Source: Sphagnum compactum
Taxonomy: Eukaryota
NCBI GenBank assembly: GCA_965153455.1
Contig: OZ234493.1
Location: 7,988,213-8,052,212 of the forward strand
Reading direction: 5' to 3'
DNA: 64,000 nt
A program made the translations under genes and the position numbers. Below are positions 2,720-51,292 of this stretch, piece after piece; position 1 is the first letter of the stretch, and each line of letters begins with the position of its first letter. The notes beneath the pieces are model-generated. The model made no database searches, was not told where the DNA came from, and was given only the letters and a program-made list of their open reading frames with translations.

Positions 2720-3960
2720 TGCAAATGGTGTATTGCATTCAAATTGTTTCCCTATTTGGAACTAAAGTCCCTTTGAGCCAAGTAACAACATAGAAAATTT
2801 TCTTTATGAATCAACCAAAAATGAACACCTTAGTCCGAAGGTGAGAAGATCAATAGGTTAAGTGCAAATGTGAACCTCATTGTTGACCATCGAACTACAA
2901 TCCTCCAAATCTTTAGCTAATTACAAATCATCATGAAGAAGAAATAAACATATTATCTATTATATAATTACATAAGTACTTTAATTTATTTTGTGCACTT
3001 AGGGAAAAACCATGTTTTGGCCAATATTTCTTCCAATAGAGGCGTAAAACATCCCATATGGCATCCATTAGAACTTCAACCTCAAATCAACATAATGTTT
3101 GCCCTTGAAAATTACCATCACAACATACATTGTAAGCCAACAAGGATGACAACAAAAAATGAGTAAATTTGGCCATCCACATTAGGAAGCTGACTTAGTG
3201 CATAATTATGCACATGGTCCTTCCATGTTTGACCATCTTAACCTTTGGACAATAGCACTTAGCAAAGTAACACTTTCCGCACATGTAAAATAATACATCC
3301 CACAATCACATCCAATGTAATGAATATCATATACTATAGATGCACATAATTTCTAGATGACTTAAATCTACAAATTCAAAATCAACAACCACCTCCTCAA
3401 ATAATGACATAACACAACATATCTCGATGTCAAGTAATTGTCAAATTTTTCATAGCCATTGGCATTATACATCGGAACAAAAGTGTTTGTTGTTCACATG
3501 CTTGAAACCACACATTCAAATCATCCAGATTACTACCATATTTCGTCAGATTGAAGTTGAATTAGCTCATGGCCAAAGAATAGAAAATATGTTGAAAATG
3601 ATGTAATAGAAACTTGCCAACTAAACGTATACCCCAAAACTAACCATGGTCATTATAAATTTTGATATTTAATATGACCTTTTTGAAAGTCATATGTACA
3701 CACTTCATTTCATTGTCCGCACCATTTGTTCAACTAAGTCATTTGCTTTAATGGTTTCACGAATTAAACAATGATCGATTAGAATTTTTACACACATTTG
3801 AAATTTCCCACGAAATTTTGCATTTTGGTTCCAAGGGCACCAAACTTTTTAAACACTATGTTTATAATTGCAAACATAGTTCCCTTATTACTATGATCCA
3901 ACAATGGCACCAACTTTAGCTATTTTGAGAAATGCTCAATTATAACCAAAACATATTAAT
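2720..3960 (-). mobile_element. Degenerate Ty3/Gypsy fragment: integrase core and C-terminus, PHD finger and 3' region (same family as the 11.4-20.2 kb element)
   Basis: Minus-strand translation with stops and frameshifts gives YVLVIIEHFSK*LKLVPLLDHS...FQKGHI...PWLVLGYTFSWQ, then KDHVHNYALSQLPNVDGQI and GCHMGCFTPLLEEILAKTWFFPKCT (3066-2992). Downstream DNA aligns by eye with 19910-20190. Confidence 0.8.
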
Positions 3961-4899
3961 TGTCTCACTGGTGATGATTATGATCTTGTAAAATGTTCTC
4001 CCATTGAAAATGTAGTTCGACTAAATTTAATTTTTATCATCTTACAAAAATAAAATGAAAATTTAAAGTGAACGAAAATGGTAAATTATTATAATTACAT
4101 AAAAAATAATAATGTATCAACTGCATATTCATGATTTATAAAGTTTTCTTTATTTTAAAGGCCCAAATCAATTAGATATGTGATTTTTAAAAAAGTCCAA
4201 AATGAGTGAAATTTTACATGTTACTATTTTGATATTATATGTACAATTAGTTTTGGGACAAAACCCGAAACAAACTATGAACATTGTACCGTGGAAAAAC
4301 ACAATAAATTCAAAAAAAACATTTGAATGCAAGATAATTGATGTGCTTACATTATTTAGAATTCTTGTCAAAAATGGTTGTGCCAAACATTTCATTGTGA
4401 CTAGAGTTACAATGTAAGGAGAGAAAAAAAGGGGAAAGAAAATATTTCCTTACAGAGGAGAGGAAAAGAGGGGAAAACATATAAGGGAAACCTATAGGTA
4501 GGACATGGCTATGTAGCAAAGACTTAAGTAAGTATCCCTTTTTGGGGTGGTAGCTAAAATTGCATTGTTTGGCATAAATTTAAATTTTTTGAAGATCAAT
4601 GTTTGCTTAACACTAATCTAACACCAACCACGAGGTAGGATTACACATAAGATTTTATGTTAAATGTAACTTTGCAAGTATGAATCTAACCAAAAAAATT
4701 TTTTATCTCCCTGAACGTCGAAAATAAAATTGGAATATCACTATGTGTGATTTGCAGCATAAGAAAGGGAAGACAAATAATATTAACGAAGCCCCAACAC
4801 TACAATTTTCATACCTATGTAAAGATAACCACTTTAAGCATGGTTGTTCATCCACACCTTTGACTCCCCCATTTCAAGATGGTATTTTGAAATGGGAAG

Positions 4900-7262: not shown

Positions 7263-9199
7263 CGCGATCATAATGATTGGTTCAGGTGGTTTGCTTTCAG
7301 TAATCTCCTACCTATTTGCAGTCCCAGTTTTTGTTTTATTGTGGGGTTGGAAAAAAAAGAAAAAAACTAAACTTGGATGTGAGAAATATTTTTGTGGGTC
7401 ACATACTGAGCATCTGAGTGTTCTGCCAAATATGGTTTGCCCCGGCAAAGAGGGCACTTTTAGTGATCATGATGCTTTTGGCGACTTGAGTCATGATTTT
7501 TCAAACGAACATTAACTAACTTACCGAGAAATTTGATATTTTGAGCATTTTGAGGGAAACCCCCAATCTCAGTTGGACTAACTTATGTCTTTTAATTTGA
7601 AACCTCTAGTTCCAATCAGGAGTTTTTTTGTGCTGAAAAAAATTTCACCATTTTCTGAAAATAATTAGAAAAGGAAAATTCTGTCAAATTTTATCTTTAA
7701 ATTTTTTAAAAACATAATTTAAATTTTTTTTAAAATTCGCCAAAAATCACCACAACTGCCTACAACATGAAAGGTGCTTGAGGTTTTTCTACTTTCATAT
7801 TTTGAATATTACCAAGTTTGGTTAAATATTCCTACGGTTGATCACCACTTGAGCACAACCATAGAATTGAAAAAAAATTAAATTAAATGGTTCCAATCCA
7901 TTATCCTTTAAATTTTTGATGAACCCTGATAAAGTTCTAAGCTCAGGTTTTCACATTCCTAAACCCCCAATATTTGGCCATAAAAAATAATCCAAAGCAA
8001 GTTCAATTTGAAAACTGGGTCCAGTTTTTTCAGTGCACCTTTGGAGAATAATTACAATTTTTTGTACAACAAATTAAAAGTACAATAATACTGAAAAATA
8101 TAACTTAATTGGGACATTTTCAAAAAAATTATATATACAAGTTTCCTCAGAAAAATGGAATAAAACAAAAGTAAATAATCATTTCACCATCCAAAATCCA
8201 ATACATTTGATTTTTCCTTAGTTTCATGCTTGGCCCACAACTCCCAACAAAGACAACTCTGATTGAAACCCCTTTTGTAAACATAGAAACAGCCTCCCCA
8301 AATCCAACAACAAAAAAGTTTCCCAAGATTCATGTGGGTCAGAGCTAGAACGATCTACTTGGGACAAAACAACACTTTAAAGGAAAATTGTTGTGCAAGT
8401 TGCCCACCCACCAAGGCTCAACTTGGAAGATTCATTCCAACTACAAAAACACAAAAAAGTCTTGTCAATTGTCCCCATTCTAGGGCATTGATTTGTGGTT
8501 CAACAAAGATTTATATGACAATGAAACAAAAAAAAAAAACACAACAAAGGAAAGGGGAAGAGACAATTGAAAGAGAAAAATATGGGAATTCAATGAGAGT
8601 CTCTTCTTGTGTAGGCATGGCAAGTTGCTTAGAGATCGATAGCTTAGATAGCTAATCCTCTCACGTTTAAGGTGTTCTTCTTCATAGTGTTTTGTGGTTA
8701 GGTAGAACTATTGATTGGTAGCATTTGCAAAGCAATTCTATTGTGGAAAAGTGTTGCCTCCACTAGGGTTTTGGGTTTAAGACCTCAAGCTATTTGTCTT
8801 GGTGTAACCCAATCTTTTCTTCCCTTTCTATTTTATAAGAATCTTTGGTAGTAGCTCTTTTCTTGAGCTTTAATTGTTTGTTCCTTTTATCAAAGTGTTC
8901 AATGTTTGCCCCCTTGACAACTTCCAATGAATGACATACCTATCATACAAGGATCTCTCTAATCCCACCCAATAGCCCTACCACCTCTGCTCGAGTTAGC
9001 ATCCCTTTCAAGGAATCACACCTAGATGGAGGATGGAACAATTAGGGAATTGCAAAACGTGTTGGAAATTCTAAGGCAAGGCTTGTCATATTTAGTGAAA
9101 TACATCTCAAATTTCAAATCTTTGAACAACTTCCTAAAAGATACTATTGGAACCACATAGGTTTGATCTTCAAGGATCATCTTTCAATTTCAACTACCA

Positions 9200-10575
9200 A
9201 ACTAGACATGTTGGTGATCAAGAACAAAACTACTTATCATATAGAACACATTGTTATAGCAAGTTTTTTGGGAAGTAGATTGCTTAAACTTCATTTCGCA
9301 AACTAGATAACTTATTTCAACCTTCTAATTCCTATAGGAGGAACCAACCTCTTCATGGATGTGAGGATAAGTTTTTATTACATATATTCATTAAACATAG
9401 AGGCTACAAGATACATCATCATGTTATCCCCGTTTCAATTTTCCTATGTACAACAATCTTCCATATGTGGACCTCAACTTTCAACTTGGATTCTCTAATG
9501 AGACCTAAGTTGCCCATTTGGATTTCATCACAAACGTTGCCATTGGAACTAAAACCAATTGAGGTTGCCATTGTGGGTCAAATTGGATCAAGGCTCATTC
9601 ATGATTGGGGTTCCTAAAAAAATAAAAAAGATATCATGATTCTTTTAAACCCGGTTTTAAAAATAATATTTACATGAATCAAATTTGAGTGAATTTTTTT
9701 GAATGGTTCAAACTATGATAATTCATGTGGTGGTGAGGGTTTTTTCACATGTATAGATTGGTGTGCATACAAAGTTTGGTTCAAACCTAAAAATGTAAAA
9801 AATGTTTGAATAAGCTTGTATGGACAATTTGATTTTTTTTTGGCATGTTTATTTCTTGCACATGTGACCCACATTTCATATTACAAATTAAAAACCTAGT
9901 GAATACTAAAATTCAACCAAATGGCCCCAAAAAAATTCCTTCGTTAGTTTAGAAAAAATGTTGCTTGCAATTACTTTTAATTGCAAAAATTGTTTACAAA
10001 TGATAATTTTTCTTCTAGTGCTTACAACCCTAAACATTGAATTTTATTGCTTTCAAAATTCTCATATGATTTATTATGCAATCACATGCATTTAATGAAC
10101 ATGACCATCCATAGATGTAAACACTATTTATTTATAAAAACAATTTGACACCAATTGCATCACTTAATGCATTTCTTTTGATTCCTTTCATGAATAGGTG
10201 AAGTTTGAACACCTAATATAGTTAGTTTAAAAGACTCAAAATGACGTTTATATAGTGTCCAAACTATTTTTTAATATTCTTATTAATTTAACATGACATC
10301 ATTTCATTCATTGGCATATGACAATCCATTACAATAACAATGATGCAAATAGAAAAGAAGTCCAAAGTTGTCCTTTGGAATCCTTTAAAAATTAGGCATT
10401 CCTTTTTAATACCCCAACCATGAATGGACCCATTAGTGTTGGGTTTTGACATCACAAACAAATTCAAAAGGGTATGAGGTTTTGTATTATGTTAAACCTT
10501 AAAAAAGGTTGGGTTACAAAAGTGCACCTAGCAAACATTAATGAAATAATGGCACATATTTGTGTTGATTATGGG
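9200..10575 (+). mobile_element. LINE (L1-type) ORF1 relic, DUF4283-like, interrupted by a TIR element
   Basis: Translation gives IVIASFLGSRL...IFHMWTSTFNLDSLMRPKLPIWISSQTLPLELKPIEVAIVGQIGS | VLGFDITNKF...RFCIMLNLKKGWVTKVHL...ICVDYG, the W-x-P/PxWI-x-LPL/IG-x-VLG-x-D pattern of plant LINE ORF1. The frame is restored when 9591-10431 plus one TSD copy is removed. Confidence 0.6.
9591..10431. mobile_element. Non-autonomous TIR DNA transposon inserted in the LINE ORF1
   Basis: Imperfect ~22-bp TIRs: AGGCTCATTCATGATTGGGGTT versus reverse complement GGGTCCATTCATGGTTGGGGTA. Flanked by ATCA/ATTA. Confidence 0.7.
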
Positions 10576-11579: not shown

Positions 11580-12663
11580 TTGGGGAACCACCAAGGGTTT
11601 CATTGATATTTGGAGTGGTGGGCACCATCAAGCTAGATGATTTCATCCAAGAATTTAACAATTAATTTGATATGAAATAGATACACAATCCTTAGATATT
11701 CACACTTTTCATGACATGGAAAAGTTTGTTTTAACATTTAAAAGGTTTGCCTATGGATGATTACCATGAATTTAGCCACACCCATGAGGTTAAAATCAAG
11801 GAATGGTAAGTGTACTAGTCATGAGAAATTATGTTCCCATCACCAAGGGTATTGTGGCCCCAAGTGCTATTATGATTTTGGTACAACAATGATAATTCCT
11901 AATAACCATTTAATTAATGGAAGTGAAATGTTTATGGAAATGGAAGTGTTAACTATACAACTATTGAAAGTGGTGGTACCAATCCTTTCAATAATACATT
12001 AGGTCTTTTGTAGACATTTGACTTATTGTGCAATTCTTTTACGAGTTGTGAAGAAATGAACAAAGGGTCTATATATAAAAACTATGTGGTTTATAGGAAC
12101 TCCAATGTAAACCACATGAAAGCTTGTGGGAGGCTTATGCCACAAATGAAGAGATTAATCACCATGACATAATAAGTCATAGAAAAATAATTTGTCTAAT
12201 TTTGGTATGGGATTCTAGATGAGGAGCTTCAATGTCAAGTGCATTATGTTATGTTACTCTAGCCCACACAACCCACATTGGCAAGTGTGTTTTAGTTCTT
12301 GGAATGTACCAAAATGAACATGGTGGGAGAATGTGTGATGATTCTTGGGTTTAGTAAAGACAACTTGAAGAATTTCTCAATATTAGTGGCTCAGTAGCCA
12401 TGTGGCCAAATAAAGTTACGGCACCAAAGACCAAGGGGCCAAATAGGAACCAAGTGATGCCTCCTCATCATATTCCATTGAGTAAAAGGGGGGAAATAAG
12501 TGTTGGAGGTGCGATGGACCACATAAAAAACATGAATTCCCTAATCCCTTTCAAGCCGCCAATGACCACCTCCAACCCTAACTTTAACCAACCATGTTCC
12601 CATTGCTATACATATGGACATGACGAAGATCACTATTTCACATTGCATCTGGAATTACAATAG
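11580..12663 (+). pseudogene. gag relic with a degenerate CCHC zinc knuckle
   Basis: LDDFIQEFNN*FDMK...WKSLF*HLKGLPMDDYHEF, then PCSHCYTYGHDEDHYF (C-x2-C-x4-H-x4-[C>Y]) in ORF 12400-12663. Confidence 0.6.
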
Positions 12664-13911: not shown

Positions 13912-14356
13912 TAGGGCACCTAAAACGTCCACATGGCGCAACATATATAATCGTTTTTTTTGTTTTGCATTTGTCACTTTCCTATGTTTTCTTCAATTGT
14001 TCTTTTTCCAAAAAGGCACTAAACATTTTTTGGGGGGTCGTAACAACTATGTACAAAGGACCATTATTTTCCATTGAAACATTTGACATCCTTGGTATTC
14101 AACTAACAACAATGTTATGCCTCATTGTCATTTTATGTGAAAGTGGGGGAACGCCAAGAATGGTGGCCACATCAAATGAAGGTTTAATTAAAATTGGAGT
14201 TCCCCACAAAGATTCCAAGGTCAACCAAAAGACAATTTCCAATAATCAATCTTGGTATTTATCACCAAACCCACTATCCTCATGGAGGCTAGTAACAGGC
14301 CACCGGGATTGAGCCTGTTGGATACCAAAATCATTAAATGGGATATTCCCAAAAAT

Positions 14357-15190
14357 GGGATATGCCTATTAGAAATGTTTGGAAGCATTAGTTATGGGTT
14401 AGTTGTGATTTTACGGTCTAACATCCAAGTTCATAAATATCATTATGTGGAGAGGGAACCACAAACCAAACAAGCCTCCATGTGTCATACCATGATGTTG
14501 CAACAACATTATCCCAACTTGTTACCAACATTAGTCATATAGGGTGACCGACATACCCTATTGAACAACATCACATTGTTGGGGGTACTATATTTGGTTA
14601 GGATTAAGGGCCTATTGATTTGGTTATTTTACAATGGTTGTGCCAAGGTCTTTCACAAGTTGACACATGTCAAACACCTTTAGACCCTAAATTAGGCTTA
14701 TTTTGGGAATTGATTTAGATTTTACAATATTCGTAGGCTACACAAATGCGCCCATATGCATACTTGTTAAAAAATGTCCCACCATTTGAATAATCTCCAT
14801 TAGTTATGTTAGTAGGATTACAATAACTTTAGGTTTAGATCAACAAATTAATGTATATGTGAATGCTATAGTAGTCATTTTACATGCTCGTTAGTGCCAA
14901 TGAATGTGGATTAACCTAACACCACCATAGGTGATATAATGAACATATCAATTCATCTTTAGGTCACCTGCATGTTTAATGAATAACATACTAAATCCAT
15001 GACAACAGTCATGTTTAGATTGTCATGATGACCGACCACCTTTTGTTGTGGTCAATAAGGTTAGACTTCAATCTTCAACAACCCTATCCACATTTTTGAG
15101 TTTTCCCCTATGACATGCATTTTGTGATGGAGGCCAAAGGATGATTTGGGATTCTAATTCATTTAATGTGGAGGAGCCTAATGCGATGAA
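14357..15190 (+). pseudogene. C5 cytosine DNA methyltransferase (DNMT3-like catalytic domain) relic inside the retrotransposon pol region
   Basis: Motif I GICLLEMFGSISYG (14357, cf. LxLFxGIG); motif II-like YHYVE; motif IV GPIDLVILQWLCQGLSQ (14608-14658, cf. GPFDLVIGGSPC, with the catalytic Cys TGC kept at 14641); GLFWEL; motif VI YLLKNV (14761, ENV with G>A); motif VIII-like HAR*CQ*MWINL (14883-14918, cf. AHRARYFWGNL); ends EEPNA. Motifs IX-X appear to be deleted. Confidence 0.8.
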
Positions 15191-15249: not shown

Positions 15250-16620
15250 CATTGGATGTTTTGCCTTTAGTTTGAAGGAATTAAGTCAATTAAAAAGACA
15301 AGTGGTCCCAATCATATCGAAAAATGGTAATCCAATTTTAGGCAACATTATAGGCTCAATGTGGTGGAAAGAACCTTGGTCCAAGCTTAAACAACAGAAT
15401 TGCTAGTTGTTAGATGCTAGTTTGGTAGAATTATTTAAATGTGGATATGCTTTAATAATAATGCTACTAGCCAATAAAGAAAATTTTGACAATTAAATAG
15501 AATATTAGCGCATGTGAAAGTTATTATCCAATGAACAAGTGAACACACTTTGAGAAATGTTCCATTCCGTTATTGGAGGATATTTTTGACACCTTTGGGC
15601 AAATCGGCCAAAGTTTTTAGCACCTTAAACTTGTGGTTTGGTTGCCAATGAAGGAGGGTGACAAGGTCAAGATAACATTTTGAGAGATAAATCATGATGG
15701 GAAGGATTGTTTATTATACCAATGGAAAATTTGCCCTTTGGTTTGAAAAATATCCTTGCAAAATTCCAAAAGATCATGGATTGGGTGTTAGTAGGTTTTA
15801 GTTTTACTAAGTGTTAAATAAATGATATCGTGTAGTCATCAATTTGGCATTATGTGATCATATGAAACACCTATAAAAGGTGTTTAGGAAGCTTAAAGAA
15901 CATAACCTCAAGCTTCTTCTAAGCAAATATTGATTTTTCCACACTTAGGTGCAATATTGAAGCATATGATTTATCTAGGTGGGTTGGTGGTTTAAAAGGC
16001 CAAGGTTGAAGCCATTTCATAAGTTCCCTAACCATTGGATGTTAGTCAATTGTGAACAATTTTGGGCTTGTGTCATTATTTTCATCAATTTATCAAAAAA
16101 AATAAAAACATCACCAAACCTTTGATTTAGTTAACTTGGATCAACCAAAAGTACATTTGGGGTGAAACACATGAGTAAAGATGGTAGGAATTGAAGGATT
16201 GGTTCACTTTTATGCCCATTTAATTTGCAGCAATCCATTTGGTGCAACCTTTTTAATTATATATAGATTGAAACACCCCAAGCCTAGGGTTAGGAGCACA
16301 ACATTCACTTAACTTGACAATGATGGTTCAAACTTGGTTTACGCTAATCGGTCCTACAACAAGACAAAGGCAAAATATAGTTCATATGAGGGGGAATGCT
16401 TCATAATTGTTTAAGTTGTTTCATCATTTTAATGTTATCTTTATACTAGTTTTTTCACATTAGTTAAAGATCACCATCCACTCAAGTTTTTGTTCAAATT
16501 AAATTGTTTCACAAGAAAGTTAGCTAGGTGGGTTGTTATTTTGTAGGAATATGATTTTGACATATTTCATCGAATGGTAGGGTTAATCAAAACATCAATG
16601 GATTAAATTGAAATCCAAGT
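15250..16620 (+). pseudogene. Reverse transcriptase and RNase H relic (Gypsy)
   Basis: GCFAFSLKEL...YRLNVVERTLV...IPLLEDIFDTFG..AKVFSTLNL...EGDKVKITF...LPFGLKN...FQKIMDWVL...C*INDIV (YIDD site). RNase H: YANRSYNKTKAKYSSYEGEC...FTLVKDHHPLKFL...KLARWVVIL*EYDFDIFHR. Confidence 0.9.
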
Positions 16621-16779: not shown

Positions 16780-19700
16780 TTAGACATACATGAAAATGTT
16801 ATTGCATATTTACAAATAGGTGAAGTTTTGGTTGAATTGACACCTAAAGAATGTGATCAAGTTATGCATAAGGCTAAAAAATTCAAGTGAAATTGTAATT
16901 CCTTCTCACAAGTGTGGATGTATGAAAAAATGCAAGTTATGTTTTGCTTAGAACAATGTGAAGGCCTTGTGTAATATGCTCATGAACAATTGGGCCATTT
17001 TAAGGTTTGATGGACCTACAATTTGGTCCAAGTATATTGGTGGTGGGAGATGCAATTACAAGTTCAACAGTTTGTTTCCTGGTGTGTGATGTTTGACCAA
17101 TTGTGGGTGTCATTCAACACACTTGCATTTCACCTATAACCTTTGCCCATCATGGTTTGGATTTTGTCACCCATTGAATTTGATAATGCAACATAGCCAA
17201 TATGTTTTGGTTATGATTAAACAATTTTGAAATGACTAAAGTTGGTGCCATCACTGAATCGTAGTAGTCAAGGTGCTACCTATGTTTTTTTGGATAATGT
17301 ATTCATTAAGTTTGGGGCTCTAATCAAAGTACTAATGACCAAAATACAAAATTTTATTATGAATTCCAAGAGTTATGAATTAACACACTAATTGATCATT
17401 GCACAACTTCATGATATCATGTTGAAGTAGATGGGTTAGTTGAATAAATGGTGTAGATGGTGAAATCAGGTTTGCAAAAATATGGGTTCCAAAAGGGCCA
17501 TATTAGAGATTGGGATTTGTCAATATTATTGTTAGCCATGGGGTTATAGGTTTAATTAACAAGTTTTTTTAACATCTTTTTCACCATATTTTCTATTGTT
17601 TAATCATGAGTTTGAGTTACCAGCTTCAATATAACAAGATGCCATGGTAATAATGAAGTTAGATGATACAATTGTGTGGTTTTAGGCATGTGAACAATGA
17701 CCAACCTTGTTTTGACATGTAATGCCAATGGCTATGGAAAATCTAGTAATTGCTTAACATAAGGAAACATTACATTACGCCACTATTTGTGGAGGTGGTT
17801 ATCAACCTTGAGTTCATAAACAACACAAACTACATTGGATCATTAGAAAAAAATTGAAAATCAATGAGTGAATTTGAGACTCATTTATAATTGTAATGGC
17901 CACATGCGATTAAAAATAGCCTAGTTGCTTTGGACAAGTGTTATAAAACAATTAGTTGCAAAATATATGACATGGCCATGAAGTTGAAACTGTAGTTGCA
18001 AACCTTACAACTAGGCCAAAATTTCTCATCCATTGCCATGGATGATCTTTAGTATGACATGGAACCCCAATTTGTGACTACATTTGGGATAGTCACATGC
18101 TACCAAATGTGCCATTGATGGGTGGTTAGGATTTAACCACATGGTAATTTAAAAAGCCAATGGCCATAAAACATGTGACAATTTTCCATTTGTTCAAAAA
18201 AGATATATTATATACAGTAATTAAATATTAAAATTACAATTAAAATAATTATTTATTTTAAGTAATTAATTATAACCTATTCTAGGCTAAGCTAAGGTAA
18301 AATAGGTTAGCTAGCATAGGCTAAGTAGGTAGGTAGGATCCTATTTATTTTGTTGGGGGCAAGCCTTTTGATTGGTTCATCCCAAATGGCACATGCATTA
18401 TGTTTATAATGCATATTATGAATCTAGTCCATTCCTTCACCTACTTATTATACTTTACAAGTTTGAAATTGTAAACAAAAGACATGTGACAATTCTAATG
18501 AAAGGGAAATACTACAACACTACAACACTATCACATCTTTGTCTCATACAAAAACATTATCATATATTCACACAATAAAATATTTATTATTTTCACTAAC
18601 TATTTACTACCTATCCTACTTACTACCTACTACCTACAAATTAACCTACCATATTAATTAATCAATTAATATAAAAACATTATGACATATCCACAAAATA
18701 AAATACCTTTTGCTTAGCTTACTTACCTACGTACTACCTAATAGTACCCATCCTACTTATTACATATTACCTAGCCTAACTAATTAATTGATTAAGTACC
18801 TAACCTAATTAATTAATTAATTAGTATGAAAACATGATCACATATTCACACAATAAACTAATAAACCTACCTATTATCTAGTTTACCAATTAATTAATGA
18901 CCTAACCTACCAACTACCTACCCAACTTATGTAACCTAATTAGGTCTAACCTTCATAGCCTAGCCTATTATCTACACCTAATAAACTAGCCTACTATTAC
19001 TTAGGCCAATTAATTAAGTATGCAAGCTAGGCTAGGCTACCAATGTACATAGGCCTACTTAGTTTAATGTAACCTATTAAGCTTAGTTAGCTTAGTTTAC
19101 CAACTAGGGTATGATAACCTTTTCTAACAAACTATTAGCTATTAGATATTATATTATGGAAGACCCATGGATAATTGCAAAGAAGACCCATGGATGGGTA
19201 CATTGAAGGGATAATAATCCAATTGAAATAACAAAATTGTCCTATGTGGTCTATGTTTTTTTGTTCATGTGGTAGAATATACTATTGTAATTGAAAAACC
19301 TTTCATTTGTAGTTGCAAAAATAACTATATTATCATCCATTGATGAATGCAATCAAAATTGGATGACATTGTTCACTTTTCATTTACATTTTCAATGAAA
19401 ATCATATTAGTCGTAAGTTTCTACAACTAAAATTTGGTTCAACCCTTCCTATAGTTGCATATGCAACTACAACAAGTTGCAATTGCATGGACATGTAGGA
19501 CTAACACATTGCTAGTTGTAAAATCAGTTGGTTTGAACATTAGTCGCCTAGTAATCAAAAAAATATGGCCACAATGGACAACATTTCTTCTAGTGATGTG
19601 ATTGTAAAGGGTGTTATTTTGCATGTGAATATGGTTTTTACCTCTTGAAATGTTGGTGTTGGAACGCCAAGATGGTTAAACATGAAAATACCACATGCAT

Positions 19701-19918
19701 AATTGCGCATTGTGTCATTTTTTTGATGTGAAATGGTTAAATTAACATGTTGTTAATGGTCAACTTTCTTGACCTCCAAGGTATGTTGTTGCGTGCAATC
19801 TTCAAGGACCGCCACTATGTTGATTTATGATCAATGTTCCCAAGGGTGGCATATGGAATATTTTATGCCCCCATTATAAGAAATATTGTTCGAAAAATGG
19901 TTTTACTTTTGGTGCACC
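16780..19918 (+). pseudogene. Integrase relic with a C-terminal PHD finger, split by the insertion at 17841-19595
   Basis: HHCC region AHEQLGHF...YWWWEMQLQVQQFVSWC; core YVLVMI...LKLVP...FGA...DQNTKF...DHCTTS*YHVEVDGLVE*MV. After the insertion: KYHMHNCALCH and TATMLIYDQCSQGWHMEYFMPPL*EILFEKWFYFWCT (19808-19918). Confidence 0.85.
17841..19595. mobile_element. Non-autonomous CACTA/EnSpm-like element with a 2-bp AT target duplication
   Basis: Termini CATTAGAAAAAAAT ... ATTTCTTCTAGTG; AT at 17839-40 and 19596-97; internal ACCTA/CCTAG-rich repeats. The empty site TTACATTGGATGTGATTGT is present in the second Gypsy copy (3302-3320, minus strand). Confidence 0.85.
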
Positions 19919-22242: not shown

Positions 22243-25200
22243 ATGGTGAGTATAATGACCAGCTTTTGTGGCTGGCTGGCTGGCTTGCTGGCTTGCTTGC
22301 TTGCTCCCTCCCAAATTTTAGATGAAGTTGGCATGATTTTTTCGGGCACCCAATTGGTTATTTGCTTGAATTGCAACAGAATTCTGATCTTTTTCTTATT
22401 TCCATCTTCACCATGGCAGCTGCATGCCTTTTTTTTAAAAAAAACTTCAAGTACAGAATTACAATTGATGACTTGCACTGATAGCTTTCAGGTTTCCAAT
22501 TGTGACATTTAGCCACAGAAAGTTTTAGTGGGTGGGTCAGAGTGCATTTGTTTTTATGAATGATCTCATCTTGTTTCTTGCTTTGTCTTCATCTATGGGC
22601 TGAATATTTTCACACTACTTCTTTTGTTTGTGAAAGAAGATTGAGAAGAGAGAGAGAGAGAGAGAGTAGTTGAATGATGAAAGATGCACAGGGGCACCCA
22701 CCCTTCAATTGTTCTTTGCTTGAATTGCAAAAGAATTTTTGCAATGTTCAGATTCTGATTTTCTTTAAATTCCTCATCACCATGGCCACACAGCATGGTT
22801 CTTACTTCAAGAATATAATGTACAATTGATAACTTGCTGGTAGCTTTCAGGTTTCCAATTGTGACAAGCCACAGATTTGGTGGTGATGAGACTCCAGAGT
22901 GAATTTGTTTTCATGAGGTCTTGTTCTTGCTTTGTCTTTGATGGGCTGATTTTCACACCACTTTTTGTTTGTGAAAGAAGATTGAGAGAGAGAGAGAGAG
23001 TTGGTACCCAATTGCTGAAAAATTTTTTGTTGTTGTTTGTCAATGTGGAGCAGTTGGGAAGCTTACAGACAGTTGCTGGCAACAGGAGCAATGGCCGCTT
23101 ATCTGCTCTTCACTCCCAGACACTTCCTCATGCTCAGCAGCAGCTGGTGGGAGATGGATCCCTGGACATTCATGGTCAACCATCTAACAAGGCCACTTCA
23201 GGACGTTGGAAAGCGGCTTATGTCCTAATGGGTGGGTAACTCCTGAGAACCCCAGAAAATCCTCATGTTCTAAAAGTTCGCTTATGATGACAATTGGTCA
23301 GTCCATCCCCTGCACTGCATGTACAGGAAGCTGATCAGATTGATGAAGTGGGAAAGAAGAAAATTCTTCAGAAGAAGTACTTATATATCTTCTGCTGAAA
23401 ATGCTGAGACTTCTTCTACTGTTATTGTTGTTGCAGCTACTGAGCTGTTGGAAAGAACTGCATACTATGGGATTGCTTTGAATCTTGTGACCTATTTGGT
23501 GACTGTACTCCACCAGGGTACTGGAGAATCCATCTCCATTGTGTATAACTGGTCGGGTACTGCTTGGATTCTGCCTTTGCTTGGAGGATTCCTCGCAGAT
23601 GCTTACTGGGGTCGCTATTGGACTATAACAGTATCTGCTGTGATTTATCTTATGGTGAGTGAGCCAAAAAAACCCATTTTTTATGTACAAAGAAAAGTTC
23701 ATGAATGTCCTTCCTCACAGTATTCTGTACCTATTACTGATGTTTGGCACAAAATAATTTGCAAAAGGTCTAGCTGAAAAAAGAGAATTATTGAAATTGT
23801 TGAAAATTGAAAACCATTCAGTTACTATCACAAATGCACAACACAAGATTTATTTTGCACACATATTCCTCAACTGTTGAACTTCTGGAAAAGTAAATTT
23901 GAAACTGCCAAACTTCATATTATTTTCTTTTATTTGGCAAACAAGTGCCCAAACATCAGTCATATTGTACCGTATTCTAGATTATGTTGAGATCTCTTGT
24001 AAAGAATCTATCTATGAAGGAAGGTAGTTTGTTTGTTAGGAGATCTCCCAAACCACAGTACCTCTTGCTGCATTCTTGTTATGGGTGAAAAGCCCTTATT
24101 GAGTAGGGGTGCAATTGGAGATGGTTCAGTGGTGTTTAGATTTATGTTGCAAGAGTTATCGAATATTGAACAATTTTGTCAAAAAAATATTTCAACGAAA
24201 TCAAACTAAATATTATGGGGAAATTTGGGCACACTCTTGATATTGTTGGAAAGCAATTGTTGCGTGATGAGTGAAATTTTGTTGGAGGTAAATCTGTAAT
24301 TCTCAGACCTAAGGTGAGGGGGAGAGATATTGAAATCTCTAGTAATAGAGATCTCTAGTAATTTTTGTCACTGAAAATTAATTTAATTTTCAAGTTTTAG
24401 AAAATTTCTGGAATCCACAATTGAACTCTATCATCAAGATTCTGTTCACAGTTGGGCCAAAGGCACACAGGCCACACTAGTGGCTATGGTGTGTTTGATA
24501 GAAAATGATTTTGCACTGTTGAAGATTTTGGAATGGAATTGTTTTTCTTGATGGGTGGGGTTGGTTCCTTCCTTCCTTTTCCTGTCTGCCTGCAGGGGCT
24601 GCTGCTGCTGACATTATCCGTGACTCTACATTCATTGAGACCTCCTCCATGCCCAACACTGGTGAATTGTGAACCGGCATCAACAACCCAAGTCAGCATC
24701 TTTTACTTTGCTCTGTATGTGATTGCCGTGGGAGTTGGAGGAATGAAACCGTGTCTTTCAGCATTAGGAGGGGATCAGTTCAACGAGGATGATGACTACG
24801 AGAGACCCATGAAACGCTCTTTCTTCAACTACTGGTGGCTTTCCATCGCTGGCGGCGGCTTAGTCTCCCTCACCATGCTAGTCTACGTCGAGGATCACGT
24901 CGGGTTTGGGTGGGGGTATGGGATTCCGACCGTCGGGTTTGGAATCGCGATTCTCATCTTTTTCTCTGGCACTCCTCGTTACCGCCACAAGCGCCCTTCT
25001 GGCAGCCCCCTCACACAAGTAGCGCAAGTCCTCGTTGCTGCTGTCCGCAACTACAATGTCGTTGTACCGTCTGGTGGCGCAAGTGAGCAGCTTTACGAGG
25101 TTTATGAGAGGGGGAAACGGAACCTTGTCCGCACCAATACTCTTCGGTAAGCTAAGCTGCTGTTTCGTCCATTGATTATTTATCAAAACTTCCACATTCT

Positions 25201-26820
25201 CTATATTATTGTTCCAATTACAACGGCTAGTAAGGGTCTAGTCTTTCCATTAGCTGTCTGCTGTGATCCCACAGTTACACATCACAGCAGCCTAATGGAA
25301 AAGCTATTGACATAGTGCCTTGTTTCTTGCTGGAGGGTCAGTAGCTTTCCATTGGAGAGCTGCAAGTACGTTGAAAATAAGTAATTACTCACATGTTAGG
25401 ACCTCTGAGAACACATGCTCTCATGAAAAAAGGGACAGAGGTCACTGCATGGTGAGTCACAGTATGACTCATACCTCTCATAGCTCCCACAATTGGTCAA
25501 TGCTTGATAGGGAGAGTTGTGAGATGACTGTGAGCACAACTAGTTGAAAAAACTTAATGGAAAGCTGCTGTGAACACAACAGCCTAATGGAAAGATGCCC
25601 TAAGTTCCGGATGCTCATGCTCTGACTCATGGAGTTCATGCATGTAACGGTTTTAAATGATGTGTTATAGGTTCCTCGATAAAGCAGCTACTCCCACACA
25701 ATCAACGTCAGAAATTGCAGCAGAAGTAGATGATGATGATGATGATGATGATAAGAAGGAGCTGCCTGAAAATCATGCAGACCCAGAAGCTGCAGTTGCC
25801 GATTTCTCTCGGCAGCCTGCGATCAAAACAACTAGTGTAAATCCATGGCGCCTTTGCAGCATGACCCAAGTGGAGGAAGTCAAGCTTTTGGTGCGTGTAC
25901 TGCCCGTGTGGTTCGCTACTCTAATGTTCCTCATCGTGGTTGCTCAACTAAGTACGCTCTTTCTCCGGCAAGGGATCAGCATGGACTTGTCCATGGGTCC
26001 GCACTTCAAAATCCCGCCTGCGTCACTAGAGCTTTTCGGCACCTTTACAGTACTAGCAGCCATTCCGTTGTATGACAAATGTTTGGTTCCCTTGGTTCGT
26101 GGCTTCACGGGCAACGAACGCGGGTTCACAATGCTACAAAGAATGGGTGTGGGACTATTCCTCTCCATCTTCGTCATGGTCGCTGCCGCTCTGGTGGAGA
26201 CTAAGCGACTCAAGGCAGTTCACGACAACGGCTTACAAGATCTCCCGGGAGTCACGGTGCCCATAACCGTCTTCTGGCTCGCTCCACAGTACAGCCTTCT
26301 GGGTCTGGCTCAGGTCAGTGTTGTTGTTTTCCCTTTTTCTAGTTTATAGCCAGAATTGGCTAAATCTTCTTAGGGATGATCGCCAATTTTTCTACATGTT
26401 CCAACTTGCCATAGGTGATTGCCACTTTTGGTTATAAACAAAATTTCCTTAAAAAAAATTTATATATATAATAAAATACTGCCTCAGGTTTTCGCTTACA
26501 TCGGTCAGTTGGAGTTTTTCTACGACCAAGCTCCCGACGACATGCAGAGCTTGGGCACTGCTCTGTTCGAAACCAACACGGGCGTTGCTCAATTCCTCAC
26601 CACCGCGCTAGTACGCGCAGTTGTCAGCGCAAGCGGTCGCAACGGCCATCAGGCTTGGATCGTTGACAACATCAACCGTTGCCGTATTGATAGATTCTAC
26701 TGGCTTCTTGCGGCCATGAGCGCTGCGAATCTCTTGCTTTTCATCGTCGTCGCCAAATGCTACACTTACAAAACCGCCAACAAACAAGTCTTTGATGAAT
26801 CATTAGCTGCTGCTGCTTGA
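22243..26820 (+). CDS. NPF: NRT1/PTR family (NPF) proton-coupled nitrate/peptide transporter, ~641 aa, 6 coding exons
   Basis: Exons 22243-22245 (ATG), 23054-23231, 23437-23654, 24596-25146, 25671-26313 and 26488-26820 join in frame (1926 nt) with GT-AG introns. Motifs: GRWKAA, ELLER-TAYYG (ExxER), GGFLADAYWGRY, GGMKPCLSALGGDQF, SFFNYW, P-x-GSPLT, FLDKAA, TQVEEVK, LQRMGVGL, GQLEFFYDQAP. Confidence 0.95.
22344..23012. repeat. Diverged tandem duplication (~340-bp units) within NPF intron 1
   Basis: The blocks GGGCACCCA...TGCTTGAATTGCA...GCTTTCAGGTTTCCAATTGTGACA...TTTGTTTGTGAAAGAAGATTGAGA(GA)n occur at ~22344-22670 and ~22692-23000. Confidence 0.85.
24007..24480 (+). mobile_element. Non-autonomous Helitron-like element in NPF intron 3
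   Basis: A|TCTATCTATG at the 5' end and CACTAG|T at the 3' end, preceded by an imperfect hairpin TGGGCC-AAA-GGCACA. AT target site, no TSD. Confidence 0.55.
25234..25600. mobile_element. Tourist/PIF-Harbinger-like MITE in NPF intron 4
   Basis: TAA|GGGTCTAGTCTTTCCATTAG ... CTAATGGAAAGATGCCC|TAA: GGG/CCC termini with a TAA TSD. Confidence 0.75.
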
Positions 26821-43856: not shown

Positions 43857-45588
43857 TCAGAATTCACGTGCTCTGGGTGGAGGCTTGTCTCCTGCCAAGT
43901 TCACTCTTATCTGTCTCCCATCATAATCCTGTAGCAGACCACCAGTGTTACAGGATGCAACCAATCACAGCTGAACTTGATGATGAACCAAACAATTCTA
44001 TAGAGTGCAAATTCTGTATGATGAACATAAGAAAAGTAACAGAGTAAGAAGGAAGTTGCCTTACCGCTCCATCCAAATTCTGGATAGCATCATTCACTTC
44101 ATCAGCATTTGAATAGGTTACAAAACCAAACCCACGAGACCTGCCAGTTTCTCTGTCATAGATCACCCTGGCATCCAAAACCTTTCCATAGTCACTGAAC
44201 TTAGCCCGAAGACTTTCATCATCCACTGACCAAGATAGGTTGCCAACAAAAAGCTTGTTTTCACTGTCATAACCACCACCACCACCACCAAACGGCCTAT
44301 CCCGCAGAGGCCTTTCACTGGGTGGCCTTCCACCACCTCGGTTGGCCTGTGGGAAGCTAACTGTCAGAGCTCGTCCTCCCAGCACCTGCAATCAAAACCC
44401 CACCACACAAAGCTTAGTCAAGACAAGAAAGTAACTGACATAGCAACTGTATCAGTTGACATCGAATGGTTAAGATGGTGTCAGGGCAATCAAACATGTC
44501 ACTGCCTCCCCCACAGTCCGCAAATAGTGTGTACAAAACCCTATGAATGAATCACCACTTTATCATCACTTTTGACATCCGGAAACACTATGGGGGCACT
44601 TGAATTCCGTGCTTCAGTATACAGAGAACAAAAAGGTGGTGACCTAGATGCTGACTTGGATATGCTTCCATTTAGGAAAGACTCCTGTAATGGATTGTCA
44701 AGTGAAGGATACAAAATTGAAAAGAGAACCATTACAGTAACCTGTAATTAGGCTAACATTTTCCATAATTCAGTCTCAGCACAATGAGTTCAGGGTCTCC
44801 TCCAAGGACGGAAAAATAGAGCAACAGCAAAAACTTACATATCCATCTAACTTCTCTTTGGCAGCCGTGGCTTCCTCCTGTGATCCCATGGTCACAAAAC
44901 CAAACCCACGGCTTCTGGAAGTTTCTCTGTCATAAATGACCTGGAAAATGAAAACACGTCATCAGCTACATTGGTCCCCCACAAACTGGATATCCCCTGT
45001 CCCAAGGACACCATGACGTTCAGGAAAAGAATCGGCATTTCCATGCGCAGAAATACAAAAATACTACTATAGCAATTTACCTACCTCAACAAGTTCGACG
45101 TTGCCAAAGTCTTGGAAGATCTCTGCTAACTGCTGGCTGTCACACGTCCAGGGCAAGTTGCCTACGTACAGCTTGGGACCTTCCTCGAGCACAGGAGGCG
45201 GAGCGCTAGATTCATAGGGCCTGGAGCGCTGTGGACTGTCGTAAGACGATGGAGTGCTGCTACTGCGGTCATAGCCAGGTATCGAGCTCGGCAAGGTATT
45301 GAAATCTGGAAGCGGAGGCGACATAGGCATATTCTGGGTCAAATAGTCGAGGTTAATATTGTAGATACTGTCTTCCAATTCCCCAGCGCGGACCACAGTA
45401 GTAGAAACATTCTTTACAGACTTTCTCAGCTGCACAATTTTGATTCTACTAGCGAGGCCACCGAGTACTCCTCCTAGAGAAGAAGAAGACCCCCAGGAAG
45501 CGTTGTTCACCAAAACGCCCTCCGAGCGGCTCGTTAGAGAGCCAATCGTTGCACTAGACACAGCCATAGTCATCCTCGATGCAGCCAT
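43857..45588 (-). CDS. CP29: Chloroplast ribonucleoprotein (cpRNP, CP29/CP31-like) with two RRM domains, ~332 aa
   Basis: Exons 45588-45085, 44940-44839, 44385-44065 and 43928-43857 (999 nt, GT-AG). Ser-rich transit-peptide-like N-terminus. RNP2 KLYVGNLPW / [12 protein letters not shown]1 SRGFGFVT twice, Gly/Arg linker, ends [11 protein letters not shown]. The exact cpRNP subfamily is uncertain. Confidence 0.93.
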
Positions 45589-48176
45589 AGCTACAGGAGA
45601 GAAGAAAAAAAAACCCCGTCCTAAACAAACAACCACGCAAGCTCTCCAACGGAGCGCAAACGCAAGGAACACCACCAAGCGCAGGAGAGAGACACAGACA
45701 GACAGAAGGAGCTTCGGTTAGGGTTTGGATATGGTTTTCCAAGCCGTCGGATCTATCACATCAACGGGTGGGATTGCGCTAGAAAGTAAGGTGGAACGAT
45801 TAGCCAGGAATTGCTGCTGTTCGGCTTTTTCGAAAGTTACTAGCGGGTTCGGTAATAATTTTGGTGAGGTAAAAGTCTCGGGATGTGAAAATTTGTGGAT
45901 AAGCAACCTCGCGTGGGTGCATCTGAGCCACAGAATGGGCATGCGTGGTGGTGGTGTATGGGGGTTGGATGGTTATGTAGAATCCCCAAAAAAGAATTAA
46001 AAATTTAAAAAAATTGCACATCAAATATTGCATTTGTAGTTTATGTATGCTAAATTCTAATATGTACGCCTAATATATTATACATGATTTAATATATATA
46101 TATATATGGACCAAGGCAAGTATGAGTTGCAAGATTTGAAGTGTGGATGGATTATTTAGTAAGTGTGGCTTGCATTTGTTCAAGTAAGCAACTCTGACAA
46201 AATTACTTGTTGAAAATTTTATTCTTATTTTCTATGAGACCAATATAGAATCACAAGTTGGTGAATTCAAAGTGTTTAGTATCTTCAGCGTTTACTTCCA
46301 ACTTTGTTGGCCTTGCCTACTACCAAGGCAAGGATATGTGTTTAGATTCACTATAGAAGAGTATAGTAGCTTAAGGGATTTTGGCCCCTGGGTAATAATA
46401 ATAATAGGTCTATTTTTATAGGAGGATTTTTGAAAGATGATATTTTGGCTTGTGTTGAAACTTGAGATTAGTTATTATAGAGTTATAATCTCTTGAAGGA
46501 TTTTGGTTTCTTTTAGAGGATTTCTTTTTGAAGATTATATTATTGCATGGTGAAATATTTGAGTTTTCATAATTCTTCTTTTGCCTTAAGATACTTTTTA
46601 ATGTAAATGGCAAGGCCACAAGTGTGTGACACACCCCTTGTCGCAATATAAAGCATGTTTCCATGCTTCTTCCAATGCACCAATGCAATCCACATCCTTA
46701 CTCAGAATTTTGGTCAATTGTAGAGTCCACAAAGCAACCTCTCAAATTCTCCATGTATATCAAGAAATGCATTCCCACAAACCCTCAATCCTTCAACACT
46801 GACTATGGCCTTTCATGCACACGTGCCTTCATCTTCTGTCAGACACAAACACTCACATATGCACTTCACCTTTCAATTCATTTTGATCCATCTCCATTCC
46901 ACAGTACTAAACATCCATCCACCCAAAAACTCAAACTTTAAAGTGTCTCTTCACCATCTTCCGCTCTTGATCATCGTCAACATCCCGACTAATAATTTAG
47001 AATTTGAAAAGCAATTCTACAATCGTCGTATATCTGTAAAGAATTTCTGAACCAAAATTTTTTTTGAACTCTTATGTGGAATATTTTTCCTCCCCACATG
47101 TGAATAGACTATGCCATTTTTGACTTCTAAATCTTGGCAGTTTTGTATGTTTACATTATGAACCTTTGCAAAGTAGAGCACCCCCCTCTAGTTTCACACT
47201 GATAATACTGCTTAACAATCTATATTATATTCCCTTAGCAATTACATGAAGCACGGAGGACTTGTCAAATACATACTATTCAGACAATCAAGTCATTGAC
47301 ATAGATGAGAGGAACTAACATGTCATGGTGTCATAATCCTTGTGGGAGGGAGGGCATTCCATTTTGTGAAACAACCTTGAGCAAGGCAGTACTGAAATGC
47401 AAGAGTTAGATCACCCATAGAGTCATCATACGAAAATGATTGGCCCAATTATGAATACAAAATAAAGAGGCATTATGAATTGAAGTATGAATAAACCGAG
47501 CGCTGCTAAAAGAACGGACTCTAGTAATGAGGTCCTTAGATGCAGATCTTGAACTATAGCCAAAATTGACAATGAATTTGCAATTGACAGATTGAATACC
47601 CACAACTCTATAGAATCTGGTGACCTAACAAGTCTGCAATCAAGCAAAATGTTGAATGCAAAGGAGAAGATTGACCAGGAAGGAATTTCGAGTTCACAAA
47701 ATGCTCTTTAACCCTGAACTTCCCATTGAGACAAAAGATCAAGGACTCAATCCAAGGAGCCTTTAGCCATAAGAAAAGAAATTAGAGAAACACATAACAG
47801 TTGCAAGAACTTACTCTAGCATTTTTTGACAGAAGAATTTTTACCAAGTAACTGCAATCTTCTGTTATTCTGCATGTGTTTTAAAACCATCAATGGAAGA
47901 TGCCTCACCAGACAGCATGCAGGTTTACAACCTTGACCACAGAAAAACAGATGATCACCACATACTTTATCCATGCCTTTCCTCTCTCTATTATCCATAA
48001 ATGCAACCAAGGTGGGAAGTAAGCCCTTACCTCCCCAATCAAACTCTCATTCCAGCATACATCTCAGGGATACAGATAAGGATCCCTGTTATGTGCAGAC
48101 ATCAATCCTTGACTAAAGCTGAAAACACAATTCATTCCAGGAGTAACCCATCCAAATAATTCATAGGTTAGACATC

Positions 48177-51100: not shown

Positions 51101-51292
51101 AACGAAGCTATTGTTGCCTTTGCTCCAGGACACTATGGTTTCAGTGGCAGCATCATCAACCATGTCATAGGTCTTTGTAAGAAACGGCGGAGGTGCATTG
51201 CTCTCCATAGGTTGCGGCCCAGCAGGGGGGGAACCACCTGCTGGAAGCAGCGGGACCTCGGAATTCATCATCACGACTTGAGCAGGAACCAT
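48177..51292 (-). CDS. HSFA1: Class A (A1-like) heat-shock transcription factor, ~490 aa
   Basis: Exons 51292-51008, 50707-50429, 49894-49366 and 48556-48177 (1473 nt). [17 protein letters not shown]...[35 protein letters not shown] with the class A insertion; NLS RKRRRLP; AHA motif NDVFWEQYL. The first intron has a GC donor. Confidence 0.95.

What the first reader, a model, noticed from the sequence alone, without database searches (positions are those of the whole stretch)
19680..19918. PHD finger, not a chromodomain, at the integrase C-terminus: a reader paired with a methylation writer
Seen: after the integrase tail (HMHNCALCH) comes MLIYDQCSQGWHMEYFMPPL*EILFEKWFYFWC, the C-x2-C-x4-H-x2-C-x2-PPL...W-x-C-x2-C pattern of a PHD finger, with several Cys decayed to Tyr (TGY>TAY). 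The second copy keeps HMGCFTPLLEE...WFFPKC. Established: chromoviruses use an integrase chromodomain to target chromatin, and PHD fingers read histone H3 tails. Inference: this family may target insertion through H3 recognition. Together with its DNMT it would resemble the DNMT3 arrangement of a PHD-like ADD reader plus catalytic domain.
Basis: partly seen in the sequence, partly recalled or inferred. Interest (0 to 1): 0.7.

Follow-up and report, generated by a model that had tools for sequence, protein, structure and literature searches.

The report
PHD finger ending a retrotransposon integrase
A dead jumping gene in a moss-like genome belongs to a green-plant-wide family whose integrase ends in a histone-binding-type zinc finger and which also carries its own DNA methyltransferase; the finger probably helps choose where new copies land, a known kind of add-on in a little-described combination.

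Summary
The PHD finger is real. This copy is dead: three ligand positions read Tyr, there is a stop and a frameshift, and a 1.75-kb repeat splits the integrase. It has no Pfam hit itself. Across the genome, 30 of 30 copies picked on the integrase tail carry the PHD (27 in frame, 25 with all eight ligands). A sister family has one 2,483-aa frame: gag-protease-DNMT3-like-RT-RNaseH-integrase-PHD-stop. Relatives occur in a liverwort, charophytes and chlorophytes. Sequence and fold put the finger with readers of unmodified H3 (ATXR5, BAZ2, KDM5 PHD1), without the H3K4me3 cage; binding is inferred. Most likely it tethers integrase to chromatin. The ADD analogy is weak for the moss element: the finger is no ADD, lies about 1,000 residues from the DNMT, and survives DNMT loss. 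But in 104 of 120 long database relatives the DNMT sits directly before the integrase, so coupling stays open. Gypsy with DNMT3 (KnitGypsy-Dnmt3), Gypsy with PHD (Gypsy-7a_cRei) and reader-plus-writer LTR elements (EpiLTRs) are in print. The scan noted this three times before on other DNA of this genome. New variant of a known kind.

The parts
11612..12361 (+). gag-like remains, broken
   Evidence: tblastn with the first frame of a closer, better-kept copy (L073), 46-57% identity, E 2e-20 and 1e-14
14022..14180 (+). protease-region remains (weak)
   Evidence: tblastn E 0.004-0.007
14297..15185 (+). DNMT3-like C5 cytosine methyltransferase remains, broken by stops and frameshifts
   Evidence: tblastn E 4e-26, 9e-21, 2e-10 with DNMT frames of related copies; those frames hit PF00145; the sister-family domain's best PDB hits are DNMT3A; no Pfam hit in the window copy itself
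15641..16298 (+). reverse transcriptase remains
   Evidence: tblastn and blastn with related copies
16295..16573 (+). RNase H remains
   Evidence: PF17917 55.2 bits; tblastn
16966..17840 (+). integrase zinc domain, core and start of the C-terminal part, broken
   Evidence: PF17921 27.4 bits; tblastn E 4e-41
17841..19595 (.). unrelated dispersed repeat inserted into the integrase tail; CACTA-like inverted ends, 2-bp duplication
   Evidence: matches on many contigs; same ends in other copies, none of 7 fetched copies lies in an integrase; ends read from the sequence; the CACTA label is recalled
19596..19730 (+). rest of the integrase C-terminal barrel with the conserved HxxNCxxCH-type motif
   Evidence: tblastn; SH3-like barrel in the model of the sister-family tail; motif tally in relatives
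19787..19918 (+). decayed C4HC3 PHD finger
   Evidence: (38% to L071 and L073); family copies hit PF00628
19950..20250 (+). 3' non-coding part shared with other copies; terminal repeats no longer recognisable here
   Evidence: about 30 blastn matches from the fetched loci cover it; no self-repeat found
2750..3961 (-). second, truncated copy: integrase tail plus decayed PHD, without the insertion
   Evidence: blastn 67-69% to the first copy; tblastn E 8e-49

Best explanation
The stretch is the decayed 3' end of pol of a dead Ty3/gypsy-type retrotransposon. In the family the polyprotein runs gag, protease, DNMT3-like methyltransferase, RT, RNase H, integrase and ends with a PHD finger right after the integrase's SH3-like barrel (shown). 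The finger is under purifying selection and is of the type that binds the free, unmodified N-terminus of histone H3 (sequence and fold shown; binding inferred). Most likely it stays on the mature integrase and tethers the integration complex to nucleosomes, disfavouring H3K4me3-marked promoters: the job a chromodomain does in chromoviruses, with a different reader (inferred). The DNMT is most likely a separate mature product that methylates the cDNA or new copy (inferred); the finger does not depend on it.
For: One open 2,483-aa frame with Pfam protease, DNA_methylase, RVT_1, RNase H, Integrase_H2C2, rve and PHD (44.4 bits), stop five residues later; two closer copies have rve and PHD in one frame. 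30 of 30 loci chosen on the integrase tail alone have the PHD downstream, 27 in the same frame, 25 with all ligands (the best 30 of 150 matches). Relatives with rve plus PHD in Calypogeia, Klebsormidium, Coleochaete, Haematococcus, Volvox, Tetrabaena, Pleodorina, Hariotina. 184 of 207 database PHDs have the full C4HC3 pattern; the position two before His is Gly in 176 of 184 and never Trp; Asp follows Cys3 in 173 of 184; Gly two before the last Trp in 147 of 184. These match the no-cage, R2-pocket and A1-pocket features described in PMC3241642 and 10.1101/715474; mapping the cage Trp to that position is recalled. Nearest solved PHDs: WSTF, KMT2D, CHD4, KMT2C, KDM5 PHD1, ATXR5, BAZ2, ORC1b. Model pLDDT 83; top match ATXR5 PHD-H3 complex, Z 9.3, rmsd 1.3 over 52 residues. 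PHD pN below pS between sister-family subfamilies, e.g. 0.052 against 0.291, like the frame upstream (omega mostly about 0.2). 4-bp target duplications and TG...CA ends in 5 of 5 elements with both ends at hand. A PHD-bearing Chlamydomonas Gypsy inserts in intergenic DNA 2.6 times more than chance (PMC9940879 section 13).
Against: No binding or targeting data for this family. The acidic residue before Cys1 that grips unmodified K4 is present in only 122 of 184 relatives and is missing in the family closest to the window copy, so that finger may be blind to K4 methylation. Flanks of 21 young insertions are only slightly more AT-rich than 400 control tiles from 20 regions (GC 0.349 against 0.388, p 0.014, tiles not independent); CpG depletion is equal (p 0.98) and open frames are similar (2 of 21 against 51 of 400). 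The decayed, closer and older sets are spread evenly along chromosomes, and the end-bias of the youngest set is shared by a chromodomain family. The Chlamydomonas bias may be selection, as its authors say. The PHD selection test rests on 45 codons and related pairs. Protease cleavage sites were not located.
Confidence: 0.58

Rival explanations
1. Reader and writer work together as in DNMT3A/DNMT3L: the PHD senses unmethylated H3K4 and positions or switches on the element's DNMT at the insertion site, so each new copy or its flanks are methylated on arrival.
For: 109 of 120 long relatives carry both domains. In 104 of 120 the DNMT lies directly upstream of the integrase, so DNMT-integrase-PHD could be one mature protein. 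The DNMT tree follows the two layouts. Catalytic motifs are kept in Haematococcus records. The finger is of the same reading type as ADD.
Against: In the moss elements about 1,000 residues of RT, RNase H and integrase separate the two. The PHD is kept without a DNMT in 9 of 120 records; in P0149 and P0201 the whole protease-to-integrase span is visible, in the others an upstream or decayed DNMT is not excluded. The search query contained the PHD, which biases these counts. No ADD model hit. The isolated KnitGypsy DNMT showed no activity in yeast, a result its authors call inconclusive.
Confidence: 0.15
2. The PHD binds chromatin or a host protein without biasing the site: it raises integration efficiency, holds the complex in the nucleus, or recruits a host factor.
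For: The K4-gripping acid is missing in the closest family. Older copies are spread evenly. PHDs also bind non-histone proteins (PMC3241642 passage). PHDs occur in many unrelated transposon proteins (PMC8557442, PMC2836005 passages).
Against: The R2 and A1 pocket residues are highly conserved. The youngest copies are unevenly placed: 11 of 20 within 1.5 Mb of a chromosome end, 3.3 expected (threshold chosen afterwards, not specific to PHD elements).
Confidence: 0.24
3. The motif is a chance pattern, or a host PHD gene fragment lying next to a retrotransposon.
For: The window copy has no Pfam hit, is frameshifted and is cut off from the integrase core.
Against: Fixed spacing and frame in many copies and species; the separating repeat is a later insertion in this copy.
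Confidence: 0.01

Closest known systems
KnitGypsy-Dnmt3 / 'Gypsy-DNMT3' of streptophytes (de Mendoza et al. 2018, PMC5890265)
   Same: Gypsy pol with an intronless DNMT3-like domain; DIRS-like repeat layout (here A ... B-A-B). K. nitens records carry rve plus PHD.
   Different: Reported from K. nitens; here in a moss-like genome, with relatives in a liverwort and chlorophytes. 'PHD' does not occur in the main text or the 3 supplements held, but Fig. 4c (domain layout) is not held and may show it.
Gypsy-7a_cRei of Chlamydomonas reinhardtii (Craig et al., PMC9940879)
   Same: Gypsy Gag-Pol with a PHD finger; intergenic insertion bias; targeting proposed.
   Different: No DNMT named in its legend; the PHD's position was not seen (figure not held); I had no sequence, so kinship is untested.
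Chromoviruses (e.g. MAGGY, Tcn1; REXdb, PMC6317226)
   Same: A histone-reader module at the integrase C-terminus.
   Different: PHD instead of chromodomain. Three chromodomain polyproteins of this genome share only 37-41% RT and 27-28% integrase identity, no C-terminal similarity, and form a separate long branch.
EpiLTRs and DAM-LTRs (bioRxiv 10.64898/2026.05.21.726589)
   Same: LTR elements combining a chromatin reader with DNA methyltransferases.
   Different: Those use a chromodomain, DAM and a DNMT4-sister enzyme; here a PHD and a DNMT3-like enzyme.
ADD domain of animal DNMT3A/3L and ATRX
   Same: PHD-like reader of unmodified H3K4 in the same gene as a DNMT3-type catalytic domain.
   Different: A canonical single PHD, no GATA-like finger (ADD make-up recalled), no ADD hit, not adjacent to the catalytic domain in moss.
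Unmodified-H3 PHDs: ATXR5, BAZ2A/B, KDM5 PHD1, ORC1b, UHRF1
   Same: Closest by sequence and fold.
   Different: Here on an integrase; the K4-binding acid is variable.

Membership tests
PHD finger (PF00628) | C4HC3 ligands with conserved Trp | tested here: met
   Met for the family: 25 of 30 genome copies, 184 of 207 database proteins. The window copy keeps only part of them.
PHD finger (PF00628) | Pfam score above cut-off | tested here: met
   44.4, 39.8, 38.4 bits in open frames; 9 of 18 decayed stretches; not the two window copies
PHD finger (PF00628) | PHD fold | tested here: met
   Model pLDDT 83; ATXR5 PHD Z 9.3, rmsd 1.3, 52 aligned
Unmodified-H3 reader PHDs | No aromatic cage; Asp after Cys3; A1 pocket | tested here: met
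   Gly 176 of 184 at the cage-Trp position, Asp 173 of 184, pocket Gly 147 of 184; position mapping partly recalled
Unmodified-H3 reader PHDs | Acidic residue before Cys1 | tested here: inconclusive
   122 of 184 relatives; present in the sister family, absent in the closest family
Unmodified-H3 reader PHDs | Measured H3 binding | not testable with these tools
   Needs a binding assay
Ty3/gypsy | PR-RT-RH-INT order, DDE integrase, TG...CA ends, short target duplication | tested here: met
   4-bp duplications in 5 of 5 related elements
Ty3/gypsy | Two full matching LTRs | tested here: not met
   Split layout A ... B-A-B in the sister and closer families; ends not recognisable in the window copy
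KnitGypsy-Dnmt3 kind | Intronless DNMT3-like domain in Pol | tested here: met
   PF00145 32.5 bits in the open frame; best PDB hits DNMT3A, E 5e-9; remains in the window
KnitGypsy-Dnmt3 kind | DIRS-like repeat structure with Gypsy domains | tested here: met
   against the legend
KnitGypsy-Dnmt3 kind | Grouping with the named K. nitens elements | tested here: inconclusive
   Partial K. nitens records at 53-56% identity are not tied to the named element; the one in the tree falls outside the moss group
Chromovirus | Chromodomain after integrase | tested here: not met
   No Chromo hit; the frame stops five residues after the PHD
Chromovirus | RT-RNase H grouping with chromoviruses | tested here: inconclusive
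   Three local chromodomain elements sit on a separate long branch; no other Gypsy references, midpoint root
ADD domain | ADD profile match; GATA-like finger plus atypical PHD next to the catalytic domain | tested here: not met
   No ADD family among Pfam hits at E<=1 or E<=0.01; about 1,000 residues from the DNMT

The most novel reading that the evidence does not exclude
A Ty3/gypsy lineage spanning mosses, liverworts, charophytes and chlorophytes has rebuilt DNMT3A/3L logic inside a retrotransposon: an unmodified-H3 reader on the integrase guides a DNMT3-like writer to the insertion site, so the element lands in and pre-methylates H3K4-unmethylated chromatin. In the chlorophyte branch the writer has moved next to the integrase and an amino-methyltransferase-like domain has been added after the finger, giving a reader flanked by two writers.
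Probability: 0.15. Interest if true: 0.82.

Novelty: new variant of a known kind. Interest (0 to 1): 0.45.

Why it matters
Integration targeting by an element-encoded histone reader is proven mainly for chromodomains (recalled; cited so in PMC6673714). This family offers a second, conserved reader type on a DDE integrase, with young intact copies and chromodomain families in the same genome for comparison. It also extends DNMT3-carrying Gypsy elements from one charophyte to land plants and chlorophytes, with two positions of the DNMT. That bears on the open question of what retrotransposon DNMTs are for. The window's copy itself is a fossil with no function.

Tried and rejected
Pfam on the two window copies: no PHD hit. 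Single-sequence structure prediction: pLDDT 31, discarded. Complex prediction of the PHD region with H3(1-30) of this genome and two zinc ions: no answer, score 0.31 against a mark of 0.34; evidence neither way. RNA runs: only contigs, many variants, DNA carry-over not excluded, two of the four runs gave identical tables; no claim on expression. The first integrase tree did not finish; FastTree was used instead, midpoint-rooted, so no order of events is claimed (unnamed records under 700 aa from the first search and records without a 150-aa integrase match were left out). The DNMT tree has no host DNMT3 outgroup, so one capture against two is undecided. A Tudor-type reader role for the barrel before the PHD was considered: Foldseek pairs it with PHF1 and UHRF1 Tudor-PHD chains, but at rmsd 13-18, and it also matches KOW, SH3-like folds and foamy-virus integrase, so I read it as the ordinary integrase C-terminal barrel. 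Flank composition and chromosome position do not separate targeting from selection. Two papers were not held: REM1 and the journal version of the chromatin-evolution survey. Ten literature searches gave no paper describing an integrase-PHD plus DNMT3 Gypsy in mosses or chlorophytes; the library lacks most subscription papers, Repbase and the Craig 2021 thesis.

Full report
Observation. The two quoted strings are at 19692-19718 and 19817-19915 on the plus strand, and a second copy lies on the minus strand at about 2750-3961. A relaxed ligand pattern matches once in the window and 0 times in 150 shuffles. The copy is dead. The two strings are 98 nt apart against 96 in open-frame copies; three Cys positions read Tyr; there is a stop inside the finger. 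Neither window copy hits PF00628. A 1.75-kb repeat at 17841-19595 splits the integrase tail; it occurs across the genome, and none of 7 fetched copies lies in an integrase.

The element. tblastn with better-kept relatives finds, in order, gag-like, protease-region, DNMT, RT, RNase H, integrase and PHD remains between 11612 and 19924; Pfam confirms RNase H and the integrase zinc domain. The window lies in a 382-Mb plant genome; runs labelled moss metagenome hold the sister family, and an earlier AI note calls it peat moss (not tested). Three related groups appear: many decayed copies about 70% alike, a closer family about 94-95% alike among themselves, and a young sister family with open 2,483-aa frames. 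That frame gives Pfam protease, DNA_methylase, RVT_1, RNase H, Integrase_H2C2, rve and PHD (44.4 bits), with a stop five residues after the finger; two copies of the closer family have rve and PHD in one frame. The best solved matches of the DNMT are DNMT3A. The ends are split direct repeats, A ... B-A-B, with TG...CA termini and 4-bp target duplications in 5 of 5 elements with both ends at hand.

I searched with the integrase tail alone and examined the best 30 of 150 matches: 30 of 30 have the PHD downstream, 27 in the same frame, 25 with all eight ligands. In 58 distinct copies found with PHD-containing queries, 357 of 406 Cys positions are Cys and Tyr is the commonest replacement. Of 18 decayed stretches, 16 of them picked by eye, 9 pass the Pfam cut-off. 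Between subfamilies of the sister family the finger shows fewer replacement than silent changes (e.g. pN 0.052, pS 0.291 over 45 codons), like the frame upstream; two printed pairs within the closer family look neutral, as expected after insertion.

Reading mode. The nearest solved PHDs are WSTF, KMT2D, CHD4, KMT2C, KDM5 PHD1, ATXR5, BAZ2 and ORC1b. A model of the integrase tail (pLDDT 83) shows a long helix, an SH3-like barrel and the finger; the top match is the ATXR5 PHD-H3 complex, Z 9.3, rmsd 1.3. Among 184 of 207 database fingers with the full pattern, the cage-Trp position is Gly in 176 and never Trp, and the R2-binding Asp is kept in 173 (features, mapping partly recalled). Against a simple H3K4me0 reading, the acid before Cys1 is present in only 122 of 184 and is absent in the family closest to the window copy. 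Binding was not measured.

Reader and writer. Of 120 listed long relatives (of 196 hits), 109 have both DNMT and PHD, 9 have a PHD without a DNMT match and 2 a DNMT without a PHD match; the query held the PHD, so this is biased. Two layouts exist. In 7 records and the moss elements the DNMT precedes RT. In 104 it lies directly before the integrase; named examples are Haematococcus, Tetrabaena, Pleodorina, Chlamydomonas eustigma and Hariotina. The latter form a 134-row clade with support 100 in an unrooted integrase tree, and the DNMT tree follows the split. At least one lineage in that clade has lost the DNMT and kept the finger (P0149, P0201). So the finger belongs to the integrase first. In moss about 1,000 residues separate it from the DNMT, and Ty3/gypsy polyproteins are cut into separate products (recalled; sites not located). 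No ADD model hits, and plant and algal DNMT3s have no ADD. The chlorophyte layout keeps functional coupling possible.

Targeting. Evidence is thin. Flanks of 21 young insertions are slightly AT-richer than control tiles, with equal CpG depletion. The 20 youngest copies on C1-C19 are enriched near chromosome ends (11 within 1.5 Mb, 3.3 expected; threshold chosen afterwards, six sets tested), but so is a young chromodomain family (13 of 40), and older sets are even. Three local chromodomain polyproteins are distant from these elements.

Literature, and what I saw. PMC5890265: abstract, passages, part 3 of section 3, search of 3 supplements; figures not held. It describes KnitGypsy-Dnmt3 with DIRS-like repeats; Fig. 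4c may show the PHD. PMC9940879: passages and section 13: Gypsy-7a_cRei has a PHD in Gag-Pol and a 2.6-fold intergenic bias. 10.64898/2026.05.21.726589: passages and section 7: EpiLTRs join a chromodomain with two methyltransferases; Gypsy-DNMT3 is given as streptophyte. Passages only: 10.1101/2021.11.30.470311 (PHD-transposon fusions are common; supplements not seen and may list these), PMC6673714, PMC12344493, PMC8557442, PMC2836005, PMC6317226 (no PHD mention), PMC11982613, PMC3241642, 10.1101/715474. REM1 is known to me from citations only. Ten searches found no description of the combined layout in mosses or chlorophytes.

Verdict. The ADD-like coupling is a minority reading (0.15). Each ingredient is in print; the conserved pairing across green plants and the moved DNMT appear undescribed in what I could search. 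The scan noted the same finger three times elsewhere in this genome. New variant of a known kind; interest 0.45.

Noticed in passing
P0126, P0131, P0143 and other long relatives, tail after the PHD: 79 of 109 long tails share a stretch with amino-methyltransferase-like motifs; Atlas look-alikes are phage proteins with minority N6_Mtase or MTS labels (score 0.94-0.95); no Pfam hit. A short Tudor-like stretch precedes it (by eye). A PHD-based parallel to EpiLTRs.
   Followed up: partly
P0002 (Calypogeia fissa) against L061:7914-9215: 85% protein identity between a liverwort and this moss-like genome over integrase and PHD, far above other relatives; horizontal transfer or contamination is possible.
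   Followed up: no
L061:260-571, 9268-9931; L067:8362-9520; L080:38-378, 8658-9230: Integrase-type ends and 4-bp duplications together with DIRS-like split repeats; one copy has B-A-B-A-B. How such a layout is reverse-transcribed is unexplained.
   Followed up: partly
window 17841-19595: AT-rich non-coding dispersed repeat with CACTA-like inverted ends and a 2-bp rather than 3-bp duplication.
   Followed up: partly
L061, DNMT motif IV: The sister family and 61 relatives have Glu instead of Pro before the catalytic Cys; the closer family and 12 relatives keep Pro.
   Followed up: no
window 19692-19718 and relatives: A conserved N-C-A-P-C-H-type motif between barrel and finger could be an extra zinc site; the first Cys varies in chlorophyte relatives.
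   Followed up: partly
G000 young sister family and chromodomain family of 1,505 aa: Both are enriched near chromosome ends; the chromodomain family is also clustered (14 of 40 with a neighbour within 100 kb, against 0 of 20).
   Followed up: partly
L080:4014-5068; L073:5398-6343: Copies of the closer family carry internal inversions or nested pieces of themselves.
   Followed up: no
window 23274-26820, 43948-45717, 48177-51316: Ordinary host genes by eye: a nitrate/peptide transporter-like gene, a chloroplast RNA-binding protein-like gene and a heat-shock factor-like gene (labels recalled).
   Followed up: no
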